A stretch of DNA of 64,000 nt. Origin: Escherichia phage adrianh. How positions within the stretch are numbered: the stretch's first letter is position 1; the number at the start of each line of letters is the position of its first letter. The stretch lies in the sequence record MN850614.1. The stretch is one strand, 5' to 3'. This document shows, piece after piece, positions 7,770 through 14,072 of this stretch. The position numbers were made by a program, and so were the translations under genes. The notes under the pieces were generated by a model. That model did not search any database and was not told the origin of the DNA. It worked only from the letters and a program-made list of their open reading frames with translations.

Positions 7770-9551
7770 ATGACTAAATCACTTTATGCAGTACCAGCAG
7801 GTTTAAACGCAGATGCTTACAAATCTGGTCATGTTTACCAGTACCCTAGTGCAACAGATTACTTGATGTTTAACCTGACACCACGTAGTGATAAATGGTT
7901 TAACAGCCCTTTAGCAATTGATGGTGTAGTGGCTTTTGGTATTCAACGTTTTGTTAAAGATTACTTAATAGACCACTGGAACGCCACCTTCTTTGAACGT
8001 GACAAAAAAGAAGCAATTGATGAAATCTTAGAAGTCATGAACGGTGTTCTGGGTAAAGATGCTATTGGTCGAGAACATTGGGAAGCACTTCACGACTTAG
8101 GTTATCTACCAGTTGAAGTATACGCTGTAGAAGAAGGTACAGTTGTCCCTATGCGTGTTCCAATGATTGTATTCCAGAACACTGTTTCAGGTTTCCATTG
8201 GGTAGCGGGATATCTGGAAGATGCTTTCTCTGCTGAGATTTGGAAGGCTTGTACCATTGCAACTATTGCATTGCACTACAAACGTATCTGTAAGAAGTGG
8301 TCTGACCTTACTTGTGACAACGACTTGCATTTACCTTATCAGTGCCATGACTTTGCTATGCGTGGTATGTCCGGCTTTACCGATGACGCATTTAACGCTG
8401 TAGGTCACTTAACCAGCTTTAAAGGGACTGATAGCTTCCCTGCTGTGTATACAGCTAAACGCATCTATGGGCAGTCCTATCCAATTTCCGATATTGGTGG
8501 TTCTGTACCAGCCACTGAACACTCTGTCATGTGTGCAAACATTGCTTGGGAAGGTGGGAATGAGTTAATTGAAGAAGAAAGACGCTTTAAAGGTGAGTTA
8601 CAAACCTTCCGTCGTTTCTTAACAGAAACTTACCCAACTGGTATTGTAAGTATTGTTTCAGACACTTATAATTTCTGGAGAACTGTATCAGTGATACTCC
8701 CAGAACTCCGTAAAGAGATTATGGAACGTGATGGCAAACTGGTAATTCGTCCTGACTCTGGCGACCCTGTACATATTGTCACAGGTTATAAAGCAATCCA
8801 CTTAGAGTGTGCTAAAAAGGCTTATTACGAACACCTAAGCAAGCTTGAAGCCAGCGACACAATGTTGAATACTGTTCTGAACATGAAGCTTGAAAACATC
8901 AACTACGGCATTGCTGGGTGGCTACTGTCAGAAGGTTACGAAATGGTTGTTGACAGAGAAGACTTTGAAGTTGCTGATACAGTGATGTTGAAAAATGCTT
9001 ATATGGTTGGTTCTGCAAACGTTGTAACACGTCCTGTAGCAGAGATTGATGGAGCTATCAAGACACTGTATAACATCTTTGGGGGAACTATCAACTCTAA
9101 AGGTTTTAAAGTACTGGATGAGCACATCGGACTTATTTATGGTGACTCTATCACGTTGGAACGTGCAAACGAAATCTTGAAGCGTTTGTATGAAATGGGT
9201 TTTGCAAGCTCTAACGTAGTGTTTGGTGTAGGCTCTTACACTTACCAGTACATGACTCGTGACACCTTTGCATTTGCTGTCAAAGCAACTCTTGCAAGCA
9301 TTGGTGGTAAAGAGATTATGCTTGCAAAAGACCCTAAAACAGATAGTGGTGTTAAGAAATCTGCCTTTGGTGGTGTAGCACCTATGTGGGATGGTGATAA
9401 GCTGAAAGCTGTAGATGGCTATGGATTCCAGAGTTTTGCAGATGTACTTGACCACCAAGCTTGTGCTTTACGTTTAGTCTTTAGCGACTCTGAGCAGTTC
9501 GGTTATACAACTCTTGGAGATATTCGAAATAATATTGACAAGCAGCTTTAA
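7770..9551 (+). CDS. Nicotinamide phosphoribosyltransferase family protein (NAMPT/NadV-like; candidate Namat)
   Basis: 593 aa; HDFAMRG, FKGTDS, SVPATEHS, IVSDTYN, IRPDSGDP and IYGDS blocks match NAMPT as recalled. Confidence 0.85.
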   Translation: MTKSLYAVPAGLNADAYKSGHVYQYPSATDYLMFNLTPRSDKWFNSPLAIDGVVAFGIQRFVKDYLIDHWNATFFERDKKEAIDEILEVMNGVLGKDAIGREHWEALHDLGYLPVEVYAVEEGTVVPMRVPMIVFQNTVSGFHWVAGYLEDAFSAEIWKACTIATIALHYKRICKKWSDLTCDNDLHLPYQCHDFAMRGMSGFTDDAFNAVGHLTSFKGTDSFPAVYTAKRIYGQSYPISDIGGSVPATEHSVMCANIAWEGGNELIEEERRFKGELQTFRRFLTETYPTGIVSIVSDTYNFWRTVSVILPELRKEIMERDGKLVIRPDSGDPVHIVTGYKAIHLECAKKAYYEHLSKLEASDTMLNTVLNMKLENINYGIAGWLLSEGYEMVVDREDFEVADTVMLKNAYMVGSANVVTRPVAEIDGAIKTLYNIFGGTINSKGFKVLDEHIGLIYGDSITLERANEILKRLYEMGFASSNVVFGVGSYTYQYMTRDTFAFAVKATLASIGGKEIMLAKDPKTDSGVKKSAFGGVAPMWDGDKLKAVDGYGFQSFADVLDHQACALRLVFSDSEQFGYTTLGDIRNNIDKQL

Positions 9552-9565
9552 AAGTATATGATAAG

Positions 9566-9588
9566 AGGCTCCTACGGGAGCCTTTTTA
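9566..9588 (+). terminator. Rho-independent terminator
   Basis: AGGCTCC / GGAGCCT stem then TTTTT. Confidence 0.6.
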
Positions 9589-9604
9589 ATTTCTGGAGAA
9601 TGCT

Positions 9605-9949
9605 ATGGACAACCTTTCCATATGGTTTAACAAGAAACCTGTACAACCGAAATACTTACAAGTTGCCTATACAGACATCCTTGAAGTTCTCGGTAAAGAA
9701 AAGTTTGAAAAGTTTTGTGAAGGCATCTACAATCATCACTGCCAATTTGCTACAAAAGAATGTATGTTTGTCATAGAACAGTTCTTTGGCAGAGACCCAG
9801 ATGACTACGAAGAGATTAGCTTTGTAATGAAATACATGATAGAGTATATTGAAAATCGTGGATTCGAAGTTAATCCTGAATTTTATGAGCACGAGGGTGT
9901 ACCTTTAGCAAAAGGTTTTGATGGAATACTTGTTAGCTGGACTTGGTGA
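9605..9949 (+). CDS. Hypothetical protein
   Basis: 114 aa ORF. Confidence 0.45.
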   Translation: MDNLSIWFNKKPVQPKYLQVAYTDILEVLGKEKFEKFCEGIYNHHCQFATKECMFVIEQFFGRDPDDYEEISFVMKYMIEYIENRGFEVNPEFYEHEGVPLAKGFDGILVSWTW

Positions 9950-10290
9950 AAATTATGAAAATCAAAGAAATGAACATCAATATTGTCTTAGAAGAACGCT
10001 GGGAGAACATCAAGAAGCCTGAAAATGGTCATAAGTTCCTCAACAAAATCTTAGTAGCAGCTAAAGAGGAACTGACTGGCAAGGTTGCAGCGGCAATCAC
10101 AATAAAGGTGTGTGTGAAAGGTCTTCCAGACAATCACCAATTTGCACTTGACGAGTTTAAAGAAAGCTTCTACAATCCAAACAAACAGATGCTTGAAAGT
10201 AACTTTGCAGTATCTACAAGTATCGTCCATGACAGAAGCTTTATCCTTTACAAGAATATGAGAGGTGAGTTATGCAAGCATATTGGATAG
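9943..10290 (+). CDS. Hypothetical protein
   Basis: 115 aa ORF. Confidence 0.45.
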   Translation: MVKIMKIKEMNINIVLEERWENIKKPENGHKFLNKILVAAKEELTGKVAAAITIKVCVKGLPDNHQFALDEFKESFYNPNKQMLESNFAVSTSIVHDRSFILYKNMRGELCKHIG

Positions 10291-10448
10291 AAATTTTACT
10301 GTCACTTGGTAGTGTAGCAGTGTTCGTATACCTTCTTTGCAAGTACTACGCAGAGCACAAAAAATGTGACTTCTGTAATGGGGAAGGTTATACAAGAGTA
10401 GGCTGTTGCCCTATATGTGGTGGTTCTGGTAAAATGTTTAATAAGTAA
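10272..10448 (+). CDS. Small membrane protein with CxxCxGxG zinc-ribbon (hypothetical)
   Basis: 58-codon ORF below track cutoff; GAGGTGAG RBS; hydrophobic N-term then CDFCNGEG..CPICGGSG. Confidence 0.45.
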   Translation: MQAYWIEILLSLGSVAVFVYLLCKYYAEHKKCDFCNGEGYTRVGCCPICGGSGKMFNK

Positions 10449-10476
10449 TTTAACAGCAAACTAAGAGGAAAGTATT

Positions 10477-12843
10477 ATGCGCATGGTAAATGACCACGCA
10501 GAAGTGATTAAGAGTTCAACTTCTTTAGAGACGTCTCAAGCACAGATTACAATGACACCCGAAATGTTCAGCCTTTTGAGTTCTGGTGTATACACCTTTA
10601 AAGAAAGGGCAGTTATTCGTGAACTGTCATGTAACGCAGTAGATGCTCAGAAAGAGGCTGGAAAAGAGAACATTCCGTTCCATGTGCATTTACCTACTCG
10701 TTTTGAGCCTTACTTTGAAGTTCGTGATTTTGGAACTGGATTGACTCATGATAAAGTTATGAGTTTGTATCTAAACTACGGGGCTTCTACGAAGAATGAC
10801 TCTAATGACTACATTGGTGCAATGGGTATCGGCTCAAAATCCCCATTTGCAATTGCTCAGTCATTCACAGTGTCCAGTTATGTTGATGGTGTTGTTAATA
10901 AGTACTCTGTTTATCTTGAGAATGGTATTCCTCAAGTAACTAAGCTGACCACCAACCCAACAAAAGAACCTAATGGTTTAGCTGTACGTGTAGCAGTTGC
11001 TGACCATCGTATCTCAAAGTTCTTTGAAGAGGCTGGTCACGTATACTCATACTTTGCTGTAAAACCGGAAAGTAATATCGAGTATGACGATGTATTGTCA
11101 GATATGAACGTCATTGCCCGTGAAGAAGGTGTTTATGATGCCATGATTCATAAGCAAAGCTGGCGTTCTAGTGGTAACAGGACAGAGTTTAATGTAGTGA
11201 TGGGTAACATTGCCTACCCTGTTAACATGGAAGCATTACTTGGTGATGATTTCTTCAAAGTCTTGCCAGAATTTTTCCGTAGGAGCGTAGACCTTGTAAA
11301 CATCTATATGCCTATTGGTTCAGTTGCTATTGCAGCTTCTCGTGAAGCATTGCAGATGAATGATACAACAAAAAATGTTATCATTGAGGCTACTAAAAAG
11401 ATAACTGAAGCAATTACAAAGGATGTTATCAAGAAAGTTAACAACCAACCTACACTCATGGATGCTGCACAGGCTTATGCTGAGTTACGTTTGAACTCAC
11501 GAGAGATGTTTAATGCTGTGTGTCCAAAGCTAGAGTGGGGAGGCATTAAGCTTGATTCTCTGGAAGAAGAATTACTAAACATTCGTCGTGGGATTATCTA
11601 CGCAGAAGACGGCTCAGTCATTTATGAACGTGACGGTAAAGGTAATATCAAGGTTGATAGGAACGGGAACAATATCCCTAAAGTGGATTATCTTTATAAT
11701 CCAGTTGCTTATGTCAAGTTCAACTCTTTAGAGAGTAAGATTCGTGCAACAGCACTTTCCTACACTCAAGAGGCAAGTATGTTCAATATCTTTGGTGCAA
11801 TGCGTAAAAGCCAAATTGAACAGTTTTTGTTCGTGATTAATGACCGTCGTAATAAAAATGGCACTGAGAAGACTGTAGGCCGCAATCAGATTCTGCGTGG
11901 TGCATGTCGAGACTACGCTAACGAGTCAAGCCTGTTCCACAGATACAATGGTATTGTGTTTGTATTCTCGACTGAAAAAGAGTTAGATGATTTAATCAAT
12001 CTACACAAGCTTGATAAAAGTTTGTTAAAGATTGTGAAGATGTCTGATAAGGAACACCATTATCAGCGTAAAGAAGCTGTGAGGGGTGTTGTAAAACTCT
12101 GGAAAGCTGTTCCATCAGAAACTAAAGCTTCATACACAGAGGTGTCAGAAGACCTAGATACAATTGAAGAACCCCAGCTTTATATCAAGGCAGTAGGCGA
12201 CACAGTTGATGGTGAATGTTTTTGCTCATCCCCAGAAGATGTAGCTAAAACAATTGCTAATGTTATAGGAAAAACAGTCTATGTTTTCCGAAAAGCAAAT
12301 TGGAAAAAGATACCAGAAGACTGGATTGAAGTAGATGAGAAGCTATTGAATGACAGCTTAACTGATGTTCACTGGATTAATCATAACAGGTATATGACAC
12401 GTATCTATATGAATGGTGTCCTTGACCTTACAAGTAGTTGGATTATTGCCAGAAACTTTACGTTTAATAACAAGAAGATTTCTCGCGGGTATTGCTATTC
12501 ACGAGATACAAACAAAACCATCTTCTTAGAAGGTAATGAGAATGCTGTTGAGGCAATGTTTGGTAAGATTCAGTATGTGGCTGCACCGTTTGCATACACT
12601 TACACTATCAGTGTTCTTCAGGATTTGAAGTCATGCCTTGACAATGATACAAAACTGTACAAAAAGATTAAGAAAGCGGGTGACCGCATGGTTATCAAAC
12701 TGACAAACTATCTTTCAAAAAGAAAACAAGAAAACTTCTTGCTTTCTCATTTAGATTGGAATAAAGTGTCACCCATCGAAGTGAGTAAGTTCTTAGGTTT
12801 TGATGTGAAGTGTGTTCCAGAAGGAACTACAATTTACGATTAA
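10477..12843 (+). CDS. rIIA: GHKL-ATPase protein, rIIA-like
   Basis: 788 aa; N-box ELSCNAVDA, G1 box DFGTGL, G2 box GAMGIGSKS; large size and position before rIIB-like gene. Confidence 0.55.
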   Translation: MRMVNDHAEVIKSSTSLETSQAQITMTPEMFSLLSSGVYTFKERAVIRELSCNAVDAQKEAGKENIPFHVHLPTRFEPYFEVRDFGTGLTHDKVMSLYLNYGASTKNDSNDYIGAMGIGSKSPFAIAQSFTVSSYVDGVVNKYSVYLENGIPQVTKLTTNPTKEPNGLAVRVAVADHRISKFFEEAGHVYSYFAVKPESNIEYDDVLSDMNVIAREEGVYDAMIHKQSWRSSGNRTEFNVVMGNIAYPVNMEALLGDDFFKVLPEFFRRSVDLVNIYMPIGSVAIAASREALQMNDTTKNVIIEATKKITEAITKDVIKKVNNQPTLMDAAQAYAELRLNSREMFNAVCPKLEWGGIKLDSLEEELLNIRRGIIYAEDGSVIYERDGKGNIKVDRNGNNIPKVDYLYNPVAYVKFNSLESKIRATALSYTQEASMFNIFGAMRKSQIEQFLFVINDRRNKNGTEKTVGRNQILRGACRDYANESSLFHRYNGIVFVFSTEKELDDLINLHKLDKSLLKIVKMSDKEHHYQRKEAVRGVVKLWKAVPSETKASYTEVSEDLDTIEEPQLYIKAVGDTVDGECFCSSPEDVAKTIANVIGKTVYVFRKANWKKIPEDWIEVDEKLLNDSLTDVHWINHNRYMTRIYMNGVLDLTSSWIIARNFTFNNKKISRGYCYSRDTNKTIFLEGNENAVEAMFGKIQYVAAPFAYTYTISVLQDLKSCLDNDTKLYKKIKKAGDRMVIKLTNYLSKRKQENFLLSHLDWNKVSPIEVSKFLGFDVKCVPEGTTIYD

Positions 12844-12922: not shown

Positions 12923-14032
12923 ATGACTACTAAAACTAAAGCACAGATTGACGCAGAAATTTACGAACTGGTTAAAGAAGGTAAGCTGACTAAAACAGCT
13001 ATTGCACAGAAGTTCAATACTTCAACCCGTTCAGTTGGTCGTGCTGTAGAGCGTCATGAAGCAACCTTAAAAGGTAAGAAAAAGGTAGCTTCTAAACCAG
13101 CTACGAAGACTTTGAAGCAAGTTGCTAAATCAGTTAAAAAGAAAGCTGACAAACCAGTTGAAAAGGTTGTTAAAGAGCCTGTACAGAAAGCTCCGGTAAA
13201 TAAACTGCATGAAGCTATGCAGAATGGCAACCAGATTGAGTACATGATTACTGGCGACTCTGTTATCATGACTTTCGGTGCAGATTCTGAAATCGTTGAA
13301 TCTACCCATCCGAACTACAAAGAAATCGTGATGGCTGTTGTATCCGGTGAGTATAAGAAAGCTTTCGAACTGATGAACATTCGTAAGTCTATCGAAAACT
13401 TCACTCAGGGTGCTATCACCATCAAAGGTGACAAGTTATTCTATGGTGCTGTTGAGATGCGTTCTACTCTGGTTGACCGTATTCTTCACATGATGAAGAC
13501 TGGAGATAAGGGTTTTGAACGCCTTGTGATGTTCTTCGAAAAACTGATGGAAAACCCATCTAAAGACTCTGTAGAACAACTTTGGGGATTCGTATCTCAC
13601 CTTGATGTTGAAATTGATGAAGAAGGCTACATCATTGGTTGGAAGAAAGTCTCTACTCATGAAGGCAAGCTGGTTGACTCCCACACCTACAGAGTACCTA
13701 ATGATTTGGGTAACATTGTAGAAATGCCACGTTGGATGGTTGATAATAACCGTAACGTGACTTGCTCTCAGGGTCTTCACGTTGGTGCTTGGGATTATGT
13801 TCGTTGCTTCTCAGGTGATACAATCCTGAAGGTTCGTGTCCATCCACGAGATGTTGTATCTGTTCCAACTGATTACAACGATATGAAGATGCGTTCGTCT
13901 CGTTATGAAGTTGCAGCAATCGTTGATAATCAACGTAAAGTGCTGAAAGAATGGGATGGCAAGACTGAAGCTTTGCATGTCATCGTTGGCACTGCTGGTG
14001 AACTAATCTCCCAACGTAAACGTGAAATCTAA
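12923..14032 (+). CDS. rIIB: rIIB-like protein (by synteny)
   Basis: 369 aa, directly downstream of rIIA-like gene; Lys-rich linker; no diagnostic motif. Confidence 0.35.
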   Translation: MTTKTKAQIDAEIYELVKEGKLTKTAIAQKFNTSTRSVGRAVERHEATLKGKKKVASKPATKTLKQVAKSVKKKADKPVEKVVKEPVQKAPVNKLHEAMQNGNQIEYMITGDSVIMTFGADSEIVESTHPNYKEIVMAVVSGEYKKAFELMNIRKSIENFTQGAITIKGDKLFYGAVEMRSTLVDRILHMMKTGDKGFERLVMFFEKLMENPSKDSVEQLWGFVSHLDVEIDEEGYIIGWKKVSTHEGKLVDSHTYRVPNDLGNIVEMPRWMVDNNRNVTCSQGLHVGAWDYVRCFSGDTILKVRVHPRDVVSVPTDYNDMKMRSSRYEVAAIVDNQRKVLKEWDGKTEALHVIVGTAGELISQRKREI

Positions 14033-14047
14033 TAAGTAATTTCTTAA

Positions 14048-14072
14048 AAGGCTGCTTCGGCGGCCTTTTTTA
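14048..14072 (+). terminator. Rho-independent terminator (UUCG tetraloop)
   Basis: GGCTGC TTCG GCGGCC then TTTTTT. Confidence 0.6.

What the first reader, a model, noticed from the sequence alone, without database searches (positions are those of the whole stretch)
10272..10448. Unannotated 58-codon gene for a membrane-anchored CxxCxGxG zinc-ribbon protein
Below the 60 aa cutoff of the ORF track but with a good RBS (GAGGTGAG), a hydrophobic N-terminal helix and two DnaJ-type CxxCxGxG motifs (CDFCNGEG, CPICGGSG). It overlaps the stop of the upstream gene by 19 nt, consistent with translational coupling, and lies immediately before the rIIA-like gene.
Basis: seen in the sequence. Interest (0 to 1): 0.45.

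Follow-up and report, generated by a model that had tools for sequence, protein, structure and literature searches.

The report
Small membrane-tethered zinc-knuckle phage protein
The 58-codon ORF is a real, strongly conserved gene of Felix O1-like phages that encodes a one-helix membrane anchor carrying a tiny four-cysteine zinc knuckle, but it is already annotated in hundreds of phage genomes, is dispensable in the laboratory, and its function is still unknown.

Summary
The window is a Felix O1-like phage (Felixounavirus). The ORF at 10272-10448 (+) is exactly as described: a GAGGTGA Shine-Dalgarno, a 19-nt overlap with the upstream gene, an N-terminal hydrophobic helix, two CxxCxGxG motifs, and rIIA 28 nt downstream. 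It is a genuine gene. dN/dS is 0.08 and variable sites by codon position are 6/4/28. The four motif cysteines and four glycines are invariant down to 30% identity.

It is not unannotated. It is Felix O1 ORF131 ("hypothetical membrane protein", NP_945023.1) and PHROG 3931. It occurs in 257 + 36 Ounavirinae records across four genera, always directly upstream of rIIA-rIIB. A homolog in T4-like Krischvirus lies next to nrdH instead.

Profile and fold comparisons place the C-terminal 27 residues with the DnaJ cysteine-rich domain and, for connectivity, with Anti-TRAP. It has no J domain and fails Pfam thresholds, so "heat shock/DnaJ" labels are over-annotation.

The SUSP1 ortholog scored "Not Fit" in a published knock-down screen, which argues against the old holin suggestion.

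Best reading: a bitopic inner-membrane protein (N-out/C-in) whose cytoplasmic zinc knuckle docks a protein partner at the membrane, as an accessory early function. The partner is unknown.

The parts
10262..10268 (+). Shine-Dalgarno sequence GAGGTGA, 3 nt upstream of the ATG, inside the upstream gene
   Evidence: Read directly. A purine-rich GGAG/GAGG is retained at the same distance in Moogle-, Susp- and P0014-type relatives.
10272..10448 (+). CDS of the 58-aa protein (= Felix O1 ORF131, PHROG 3931)
   Evidence: ORF list. PHROG 3931 full-length, E=7.8e-33. Annotated CDS in relatives. dN/dS 0.08 and codon-position variability 6/4/28.
10272..10290 (+). 19-nt dual-coding overlap with the stop-proximal end of the upstream 111-aa gene (...CKHIG* over MQAYWIE)
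   Evidence: The overlap length is identical in Felixouna-, Moogle- and Suspvirus and in locus L028.
10284..10340 (+). Codons 5-23: predicted transmembrane helix (WIEILLSLGSVAVFVYLLC), flanked by Y4/W5 and K24/Y25
   Evidence: Hydropathy, mean KD 2.11. The AlphaFold2 model has one helix at 4-29, with pLDDT 77-88 over residues 1-20.
10365..10388 (+). Zinc knuckle 1, CDFCNGEG (C32, C35, G37, G39)
   Evidence: Invariant in all family members. Synonymous codon changes occur at these Cys/Gly codons.
10407..10430 (+). Zinc knuckle 2, CPICGGSG (C46, C49, G51, G53), 14 residues after knuckle 1
   Evidence: The neighbouring C45 is replaced by Pro in P0011, so it is not a ligand.
9955..10290 (+). Upstream 111-aa gene (PHROG 4262, unknown function), translationally coupled partner in three genera
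   Evidence: Found in 257 phage records with the same organism breakdown as the 58-aa gene. The fold model is low-confidence and has no significant match.
10477..12843 (+). rIIA, 28 nt downstream with no intervening terminator
   Evidence: PHROG 612, E=1e-188. Terminator scan.
12923..14032 (+). rIIB, last gene of the inferred transcription unit
   Evidence: PHROG 609, E=3e-88.
9535..9586 (+). Promoter-like site (TTGACA-16-TATGAT, 11/12) abutting a 10-bp-stem terminator: the upstream boundary of the unit
   Evidence: consensus scan only, not evidence of function.
14046..14069 (+). Intrinsic-terminator-like hairpin after rIIB: the downstream boundary of the unit

Best explanation
The ORF encodes a bitopic inner-membrane protein. 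A 4-residue N-terminus faces the periplasm, one transmembrane helix spans residues ~5-23, and a 35-residue C-terminal tail faces the cytoplasm. In that tail C32, C35, C46 and C49 bind one Zn2+, folding two CxxCxGxG knuckles into a single compact zinc hairpin. This is the connectivity of Anti-TRAP, not of DnaJ. The gene is transcribed with rIIA-rIIB from one unit and translated by coupling to the upstream gene. It works as a membrane-tethered protein-binding module that holds a partner at the cytoplasmic face of the membrane, as an accessory early function. The partner could be the phage RII proteins or a host membrane-associated factor. Shown here: the gene is real and under purifying selection, the domain architecture, the operon context, and the dispensability of the SUSP1 ortholog. 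Inferred: zinc binding, topology, the protein-binding role, and the partner.
For: Coding: dN/dS is 0.08 among 17 distinct Felixounavirus alleles, variable sites by codon position are 6/4/28, and synonymous variation occurs at the conserved Cys/Gly codons. The frame is intact in all 27 fetched relatives' loci.

Architecture: TM at 5-23. The AF2 model has a helix at 4-29 followed by short beta knuckles, pLDDT 74.

Zinc domain: the family profile hits the DnaJ Cys-rich domain 1EXK (E=1.9e-7), DNAJA3 2CTT (1e-6) and Anti-TRAP 2BX9 (0.03). Foldseek's top PDB hit is Anti-TRAP 3LD0 (prob 0.94, 1.9 A over 27 residues, 37% id), followed by DnaJ CR domains and UvrA zinc modules. The 14-residue knuckle spacing equals that of Anti-TRAP.

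Topology: no K/R precedes the TM in any of 11 family members, and at least 1 follows it in 10 of the 11 (3 in Felixounavirus). The Hena2 sequence shows the same pattern.

Context: terminators at 9563-9586 and 14046-14069 bracket hyp-hyp-ORF-rIIA-rIIB, with none between the ORF and rIIA. The position directly upstream of rIIA is kept in Felixouna-, Moogle-, Susp- and Kolesnikvirus even though the upstream neighbour changes.

Accessory role: SUSP1 ortholog AVU07_agp080 has fitness 1.05 and is 'Not Fit' in CRISPRi-ART (PMC11879866 suppl. 8 and 16).

Precedent for a protein-binding role: Anti-TRAP (per the PDB entry titles). Arabidopsis FIP also has a TM plus a stromal C4 finger with two CxxCxGxG motifs and binds FtsH5 (PMC5915565).
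Against: There is no direct evidence for zinc binding, topology or any partner. The positive-inside signal is weak in the Moogle/Susp clades, whose linkers are acidic (1 K/R against 5 D/E). CxxCxGxG-repeat proteins with clear signal peptides exist (P0038, P0043, P0105), so the motif is not restricted to the cytoplasm. A true homolog in Krischvirus (hhalign prob 97%, E=3.7e-11) lies next to nrdH, far from rII, so an rII-specific partnership cannot hold for the whole family. None of six sampled non-Ounavirinae rIIA phages has such a gene near rIIA. The domain hits are significant only at profile level; Pfam models are all below their gathering thresholds.
Confidence: 0.5

Rival explanations
1. 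Inverted topology (N-in/C-out). The Cys-rich tail is periplasmic, stabilised by disulfides or zinc, and acts in the envelope, for example in superinfection exclusion or as a lysis-inhibition sensor analogous in logic to T4 RI.
For: Acidic, net-negative C-terminal tails occur in the Moogle/Susp clades. Signal-peptide-bearing CxxCxGxG repeat proteins occur in metagenomes. The gene lies in a 'lysis inhibitor'-annotated rII neighbourhood.
Against: No positively charged n-region precedes the helix in any member, and a K/R follows the helix in 10 of 11. All solved relatives found here (DnaJ CR, Anti-TRAP, UvrA) are, from general knowledge, cytoplasmic zinc sites. The architectural analogue FIP has its finger on the stromal (cytoplasm-equivalent) side.
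Confidence: 0.2
2. A redox-active membrane chaperone or thiol-disulfide oxidoreductase. Like the thylakoid DnaJ-like zinc-finger protein ZnJ6 (and, from memory only, LQY1 and CYO1), the C4 site acts catalytically or as a redox switch on cysteines of membrane proteins.
For: Thylakoid DnaJ-like zinc-finger membrane proteins with oxidising activity are described (ZnJ6, PMC7865324, listed; abstract only). The Krischvirus homolog overlaps the glutaredoxin gene nrdH by 11 nt in RB49, and most annotated hits list a glutaredoxin beside it.
Against: The plant examples usually carry two zinc centres (four motifs), whereas this protein has one. Adjacency to nrdH is not seen in Ounavirinae. No redox partner gene lies in the rII unit of the window.
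Confidence: 0.12
3. A holin or antiholin. Whichard et al. 2010 listed Felix O1 gp131 among small membrane proteins that could be the holin.
For: It is a small protein with one TM and a charged C-terminus, and it was named as a candidate in PMC3185647. ORF131 is this gene.
Against: The SUSP1 ortholog knock-down is 'Not Fit', whereas a sole holin should be required for plaque formation. The Mushroom genome paper assigns a T4-like class III holin, while in the Mushroom record the two features under this match are labelled 'heat shock protein' and 'hypothetical protein', neither a holin. A conserved zinc knuckle is not a holin feature. The gene sits in an rII (early-type) unit.
Confidence: 0.05
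4. Not a gene: a chance ORF in an AT-rich genome, or a by-product of constraints on the neighbouring genes.
For: It is short (58 codons), and many chance ORFs of 30-60 codons exist nearby. The first 6 codons are constrained by the overlapping upstream gene.
Against: dN/dS is 0.08 with a third-position excess. The motif pair has zero occurrences in 200 random windows. Homologs occur in five genera, with only the eight motif residues (and Met1) invariant. No Rfam family matches the locus.
Confidence: 0.01

Closest known systems
Felix O1 ORF131 / gp131 (NP_945023.1), PHROG 3931
   Same: It is the same gene. It has the same 177-nt length and the same position between ORF130 and rIIA, and it gives a full-length PHROG match at E=7.8e-33.
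   Different: Nothing structural differs. The window allele differs from the commonest allele only at V43 (usually A) and I48 (usually M). Function was and remains unassigned.
Anti-TRAP (RtpA) of Bacillus (PDB 2BX9, 3LD0)
   Same: It is a ~53-aa protein in which two adjacent CxxCxGxG-type knuckles 14 residues apart bind one zinc. It is the best fold match (prob 0.94, 1.9 A over 27 residues). It acts purely by binding another protein.
   Different: Anti-TRAP is soluble, and a C-terminal helix drives trimer/dodecamer assembly (from my own knowledge, not tested here). The phage protein has an N-terminal TM helix instead and ends 5 residues after the second knuckle. Sequence similarity is marginal (E=0.03).
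DnaJ/Hsp40 cysteine-rich domain (PF00684; PDB 1EXK, 2CTT)
   Same: It has the same CxxCxGxG motif and gives the best sequence-profile matches (E=1.9e-7 and 1e-6).
   Different: DnaJ has four motifs forming two interleaved zinc centres (1+4 and 2+3, from the literature), plus a J domain and a G/F region. This protein has two motifs, one centre and no J domain, and it scores 14.1 bits against a 32.7-bit Pfam threshold. 'Heat shock protein' and 'dnaJ chaperone' labels in some records are over-annotation.
Arabidopsis FIP (At5g02160), and related thylakoid DnaJ-like zinc-finger membrane proteins (LQY1, ZnJ6)
   Same: The mature ~9-kDa protein has a short lumenal N-terminus, one TM, and a stromal C4 finger with exactly two CxxCxGxG motifs and no J domain. 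It binds a membrane AAA+ protease, FtsH5 (PMC5915565).
   Different: It is eukaryotic and plastid-targeted with a transit peptide. No sequence comparison could be run here. Its function there is stress regulation. There is no evidence the phage protein touches FtsH.
Krischvirus (RB49) ORF046c
   Same: It is a homolog with the same build: acidic short N-terminus, TM, KK, CKHCNGTG, then 14 residues later (first Cys to first Cys) CAHCHGSGK, including the GCC doublet. hhalign gives prob 97%, E=3.7e-11, and tblastn from it hits Felixounavirus over residues 3-48.
   Different: It is 52 aa, lies in a T4-like genome, overlaps nrdH, and is far from rIIA/rIIB.

Membership tests
PHROG 3931 (phage protein family, unknown function) | Full-length match to the family HMM | tested here: met
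   E=7.8e-33, residues 1-58 on profile 1-59/59. The Kolesnikvirus (3.7e-18) and RB49 (4.4e-10) proteins hit the same PHROG.
DnaJ/Hsp40 (type I J-protein) | J domain with HPD motif | tested here: not met
   The protein is 58 aa and gives no DnaJ (J-domain) Pfam hit at E<=1. NCBIfam DnaJ_bact scores 16 bits against a 377-bit cutoff.
DnaJ/Hsp40 (type I J-protein) | Cys-rich domain with four CxxCxGxG motifs forming two zinc centres (PF00684 above the gathering score) | tested here: not met
   Only two motifs are present. PF00684 scores 14.1 bits against a 32.7-bit cutoff.
Anti-TRAP (RtpA) | Single zinc site from two adjacent knuckles ~14 residues apart | tested here: met
   C32 to C46 is 14 residues. 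The profile aligns 31-53 to Anti-TRAP 11-33. It is the best fold hit.
Anti-TRAP (RtpA) | Soluble protein with a C-terminal oligomerisation helix; significant sequence similarity | tested here: not met
   The protein ends 5 residues after knuckle 2 and has an N-terminal TM instead. Sequence E is only 0.03-0.07.
Zinc-binding C4 site | Four invariant Cys in two CxxC knuckles; metal actually bound | tested here: inconclusive
   The four Cys are invariant across five genera, and C45 and C23 are dispensable. Metal binding is not testable with these tools.
Bitopic inner-membrane protein, N-out/C-in | One hydrophobic helix of ~19-22 residues; more K/R on the cytoplasmic flank | tested here: inconclusive
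   The helix is clear (mean KD 1.9-2.5). The K/R count is 0 at the N-flank against 1-3 at the C-flank in most members, but the linkers are acidic in two clades. No dedicated topology predictor was available.
Holin (class III, T4 gpT-like) | Single TM N-in/C-out with a large periplasmic domain; required for lysis | tested here: not met
   The tail is only 35 residues and carries a zinc knuckle. The SUSP1 ortholog is 'Not Fit'. In the Mushroom record neither feature under this match is a holin, while its paper describes a class III holin.
rII module (rIIA-rIIB operon component) | Conserved adjacency and co-transcription with rIIA/rIIB wherever the gene occurs | tested here: inconclusive
   Met in four Ounavirinae genera, with no terminator before rIIA. 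Not met for the Krischvirus homolog, and the gene is absent near rIIA in six other phage groups.
FIP-like membrane DnaJ-like zinc-finger proteins | TM anchor plus a C-terminal finger with two CxxCxGxG motifs, no J domain | tested here: met
   The architecture is identical to that described in PMC5915565 and seen. Homology and FtsH binding were not tested or are not testable here.
DUF5351 (PF17302) / Lar restriction alleviation (PF14354) | Score above the Pfam gathering threshold | tested here: not met
   21.6 bits against 27, and 16.5 against 28.6.

The most novel reading that the evidence does not exclude
The protein is a minimal, membrane-tethered mimic of a DnaJ-type zinc centre. The phage uses it to dock onto a membrane-associated ATPase machine: host FtsH (as plant FIP does), host DnaK, or the GHKL-like N-terminal domain of its own RIIA. 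By doing so it tunes membrane-protein quality control, or helps RII protect membrane integrity against abortive-infection systems. That would give the enigmatic rII module its first defined small cofactor in Ounavirinae.
Probability: 0.1. Interest if true: 0.6.

Novelty: new member of a known kind. Interest (0 to 1): 0.3.

Why it matters
The practical value is mostly corrective.

- It shows that a sub-60-codon ORF missed by a length cutoff is a bona fide, strongly constrained gene.
- It shows that the gene is already catalogued (Felix O1 ORF131, PHROG 3931).
- It shows that labels such as "heat shock protein", "dnaJ chaperone" and "holin candidate" attached to it in public records are not supported.

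Biologically, it defines a small family present in roughly 350 deposited phage genomes of two lineages, with a simple, testable architecture: one TM helix plus one Anti-TRAP-like zinc knuckle. In Ounavirinae its fixed position in the rIIA-rIIB unit makes it a cheap candidate to test as an rII cofactor. How RII proteins work has been an open question for about 70 years, and a published knock-down system already exists for the relative SUSP1. Without a phenotype or partner, however, it remains one of many conserved small phage membrane proteins of unknown role.

Tried and rejected
1. T4 rIIA.1, the gene in the equivalent position in T4, is a soluble 67-aa protein without cysteines and is unrelated.

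2. Pfam, NCBIfam and PADLOC gave no hit above threshold and no defence-system match.

3. The word-indexed homolog search found only Ounavirinae proteins. The exhaustive profile search gave 410 hits, but beyond the orthologs these are mostly multi-repeat CxxCxGxG proteins matched on the motif alone. Two small look-alikes (P0132, P0119) lie on short metagenomic contigs with uninformative neighbours.

4. I modelled the fold of the coupled upstream 111-aa protein as a route to function. The model had pLDDT 69 and only non-significant IF3-C-like matches (E~0.1), so I did not use it.

5. The upstream neighbour in Kolesnikvirus is not detectably homologous to the 111-aa gene (hhalign prob 5%), so I dropped the idea of a family-wide two-gene module.

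6. I looked for positional analogues upstream of rIIA in Vequintavirus, an N4-like phage, Kuttervirus, a Klebsiella jumbo-type phage, Lacusarxvirus and T4, and found none.

8. No transcriptome or proteome paper on Felixounavirus was found in the library.

9. The Rfam scan of 9400-10700 found nothing near any family's threshold.

10. A lipoprotein reading was rejected. C23 is not conserved (Ala in Suspvirus) and, by my reading of the sequence, no lipobox precedes it.

Full report
**Identity of the window and check of the observation**

A 1.5-kb stretch around the finding is 92-97% identical to many Felix O1-like myophages (Ounavirinae, Felixounavirus), with Escherichia phage HK3 the best at 97%.

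GAGGTGA at 10262-10268 is a seven-base match to the anti-Shine-Dalgarno sequence and lies 3 nt from the ATG.

The upstream gene is best started at 9955, as in relatives. It ends at 10290, so the overlap is 19 nt.

rIIA (PHROG 612, E=1e-188) begins at 10477 and rIIB (PHROG 609) follows at 12923.

The two CxxCxGxG motifs start at 10365 and 10407. They are the only ones in all six frames of the 64-kb window. No pair occurred in 200 random sequences of the same first-order composition.

**Is it a gene?**

Yes. The reading frame is open in all 27 fetched relatives' loci.

- Among 17 distinct Felixounavirus alleles the pooled pN/pS is 0.020/0.252, a ratio of 0.08.
- Variable sites fall 6/4/28 on codon positions 1/2/3.
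- The conserved Cys and Gly codons show synonymous variation (TGT/TGC; GGA/GGC/GGG/GGT).
- The start codon, the SD-like purine tract and the 19-nt overlap are kept in Mooglevirus, Suspvirus and a fourth metagenomic clade.
- No Rfam family competes for the locus.

The first six codons are dual-coding with the end of the upstream gene (...CKxIG* over MQxYWxE). Part of the N-terminal conservation may therefore come from that constraint.

**It is not unannotated**

The same 177-nt CDS is Felix O1 ORF131, "hypothetical membrane protein", NP_945023.1. It is also annotated as:

- "membrane protein" in HK3,
- "heat shock protein" in EcoM2 and Mushroom,
- "hypothetical protein" in RefSeq typing phage 1.

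It matches PHROG 3931 over its full length (E=7.8e-33). Whichard et al. 2010 listed gp131 among possible holins on generic grounds (PMC3185647).

**Distribution**

- tblastn finds the protein in 257 phage records. Those listed belong to Felixounavirus, Mooglevirus or Suspvirus, and identity falls to 45-54% in the two latter genera.
- The coupled upstream 111-aa gene is found in 257 records with the same organism breakdown.
- A fourth Ounavirinae genus, Kolesnikvirus (Erwinia phages phiEa21-4, Hena2; 36 records), has a 54-aa ORF directly before rIIA with the same build. tblastn from the window protein did not find it, but it is homologous by profile comparison (hhalign prob 96%, E=1.5e-9; PHROG 3931 E=3.7e-18). 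Its upstream neighbour is not detectably related to the 111-aa gene. The adjacency that survives across the subfamily is therefore the one with rIIA.
- The viral fold search pointed to a 52-aa protein of the T4-like phage RB49. I located it as ORF046c: MIIENLVSVFIIALFAIMTLPLKKCKHCNGTGLRGDGCCAHCHGSGKVSIIK. It overlaps nrdH (glutaredoxin) by 11 nt and is far from rIIA/rIIB. It is a homolog: hhalign prob 97%, E=3.7e-11, and tblastn from it hits Felixounavirus over residues 3-48 at 42-44% identity. It is present in about 60 Krischvirus records.
- T4 rIIA.1 is unrelated. Six other rIIA-bearing phage groups have no such ORF within 2.5 kb of rIIA.

**Anatomy**

Residues 5-23 are the hydrophobic core (mean Kyte-Doolittle 2.11), bracketed by Y4-W5 and K24-Y25. 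AlphaFold2 on a 9-sequence alignment gives one helix at 4-29 and then short beta elements, with mean pLDDT 74.

Across Ounavirinae the invariant positions are M1, Q2, Y4, W5, E7, L10, S11, G13, L22, K24, C32, C35, G37, G39, C46, P47, C49, G51 and G53. Across all five genera only Met1 and the eight motif residues remain invariant.

C45 is replaced by Pro in one ortholog and C23 by Ala in Suspvirus. That leaves exactly four candidate ligands.

- The family profile matches the DnaJ cysteine-rich domain (1EXK, E=1.9e-7; 2CTT, 1e-6) and, weakly, Anti-TRAP (E=0.03).
- By fold, the best PDB match is Anti-TRAP (3LD0, prob 0.94, 1.9 A over 27 residues). DnaJ CR domains, UvrA zinc modules and BSD2 follow. 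None reaches E<=0.001, because the domain is tiny.

From the literature, DnaJ's sequence-adjacent motifs belong to different zinc centres. A protein with only two motifs must pair them with each other, as Anti-TRAP does, and the 14-residue spacing is the same. Zinc binding itself is inferred, not shown.

**Topology**

No family member has a Lys or Arg before the helix, and most have one to three just after it. The positive-inside rule therefore puts the tail in the cytoplasm.

This is firm for Felixounavirus, Kolesnikvirus and Krischvirus. It is weak for Mooglevirus and Suspvirus, whose linkers are acidic. Metagenomic CxxCxGxG-repeat proteins with obvious signal peptides exist, so a periplasmic orientation cannot be excluded. 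I give it about 0.2.

**Expression context**

A strong terminator-like hairpin follows the NAMPT gene at 9563-9586, abutted by a near-consensus promoter-like site at 9535-9562. The next strong terminator is at 14046-14069, after rIIB. There is none in the 28 nt between the ORF and rIIA.

The inferred unit is therefore 114-aa gene, 111-aa gene, 58-aa gene, rIIA, rIIB. These are consensus scans, and transcription was not measured. No transcriptome of a Felixounavirus was found in the searchable literature.

**Functional data from a relative**

In the CRISPRi-ART transcriptome-wide screen of phage SUSP1 (PMC11879866), the ortholog is AVU07_agp080, which the authors mapped to phrog_3931 and Felix01p243. 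It has a mean fitness of 1.05 and is classed "Not Fit". The adjacent rIIA (agp081) scores 1.83, "Semi-Fit", and rIIB and the 111-aa gene are "Not Fit".

The same paper shows that SUSP1 rIIA/rIIB knock-down matters only on hosts expressing lambda RexAB. The small gene is thus dispensable on a defence-poor laboratory host, as accessory or counter-defence genes typically are. Its slightly positive score could reflect polarity on rIIA.

**Explanations**

I favour a membrane-tethered, cytoplasm-facing, single-zinc protein-binding module (confidence 0.5).

The architectural precedents are Anti-TRAP, a protein-binding antagonist, and Arabidopsis FIP. FIP has a short lumenal N-terminus, one TM and a stromal C4 finger with exactly two CxxCxGxG motifs, and it binds the membrane protease FtsH5 (PMC5915565).

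The fixed place in the rII unit suggests RIIA/RIIB as partners in Ounavirinae. The Krischvirus homolog next to nrdH shows the family is not intrinsically an rII component.

The rivals are:

- **Periplasmic orientation (0.2).**
- **A redox or oxidoreductase role like thylakoid DnaJ-like zinc-finger proteins (0.12).** This is hinted at by the nrdH adjacency.
- **A holin/antiholin (0.05).** Three things argue against it: the SUSP1 result, the Mushroom record in which neither feature under this match is a holin although its paper describes a class III holin, and the zinc knuckle itself.
- **A non-gene (0.01).**

**Comparison and novelty**

The protein is a member of PHROG 3931 and is the known Felix O1 ORF131.

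It is not a DnaJ/Hsp40: it has no J domain, two rather than four motifs, and PF00684 scores 14.1 bits against a 32.7-bit threshold. It is not an Anti-TRAP family member either: it has a TM in place of a C-terminal helix, and the sequence score is marginal.

It belongs to the loose, already recognised kind of J-domain-less DnaJ-like zinc-finger proteins, and I found no functional study of the phage family.

The gene's existence is old news. What is added here is:

- the proof of constraint,
- the precise domain reading (Anti-TRAP-like connectivity),
- the family's extent (Ounavirinae plus Krischvirus),
- its conserved place in the rII unit,
- the rejection of the "heat shock/DnaJ" and "holin" labels.

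Interest is modest (0.3). It would rise only if a partner such as RIIA or FtsH were demonstrated.

Noticed in passing
window 9535-9586: A near-consensus sigma70-like promoter (TTGACA-16-TATGAT, 11/12) ends exactly where a 10-bp-stem intrinsic terminator begins. A transcript initiated there would lack the 5' arm of the hairpin, so the same sequence could terminate NAMPT transcripts yet let the rII-unit transcript through.
   Followed up: no
window 9605-9949: The slot between NAMPT and the 111-aa gene is variable. A 114-aa PHROG 20372 gene sits there in this window, HK3 and typing phage 1. It is absent in Felix O1 and EcoM2, and a 71-73-aa gene (DUF7279 hit on locus L028) takes its place in Moogle, SUSP1 and L028.
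   Followed up: partly
window 10359-10364 (A6 run) and 10380-10383 (GGGG run): A few deposited genomes and assemblies carry frameshifted versions of the ORF (P0003 phiWec177, P0005-P0007, and truncated P0004 NJ12). The breaks appear to map to these homopolymer runs, so they are probably sequencing errors rather than pseudogenes.
   Followed up: partly
L041 (RB49, AY343333 29883-30041): The Krischvirus homolog of the 58-aa protein overlaps the glutaredoxin gene nrdH by 11 nt in RB49, and most annotated hits among ~60 records list a glutaredoxin beside it. This is a possible hint at a thiol/redox link.
   Followed up: partly
window 9955-10290: The coupled upstream 111-aa protein (PHROG 4262) is more conserved than the small ORF (58-68% against 45-53% identity between genera). 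It has an invariant C-terminal C-K-x-I-G. Its low-confidence model has a beta-alpha-beta-alpha core with only non-significant IF3-C-like matches.
   Followed up: partly
public records MG065664.1 (Campylobacter phage A132) and one Staphylococcus-labelled record: Records labelled as Campylobacter or Staphylococcus phages contain Felixounavirus sequence 93% identical to this ORF. They are probably contaminated or mislabelled.
   Followed up: no
L038 2254-2490 (Klebsiella phage RCIP0052): An unrelated 78-aa single-TM ORF without a zinc motif lies directly upstream of rIIA in this T4-like Klebsiella phage. A small membrane protein before rIIA may therefore recur independently.
   Followed up: no
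window 10477-12843 (rIIA): The N-terminal part of RIIA gives a weak HATPase_c (GHKL ATPase) Pfam hit at residues 45-99, E=0.13 and far below threshold. It is noted only as a lead for what a zinc-knuckle partner might bind.
   Followed up: no
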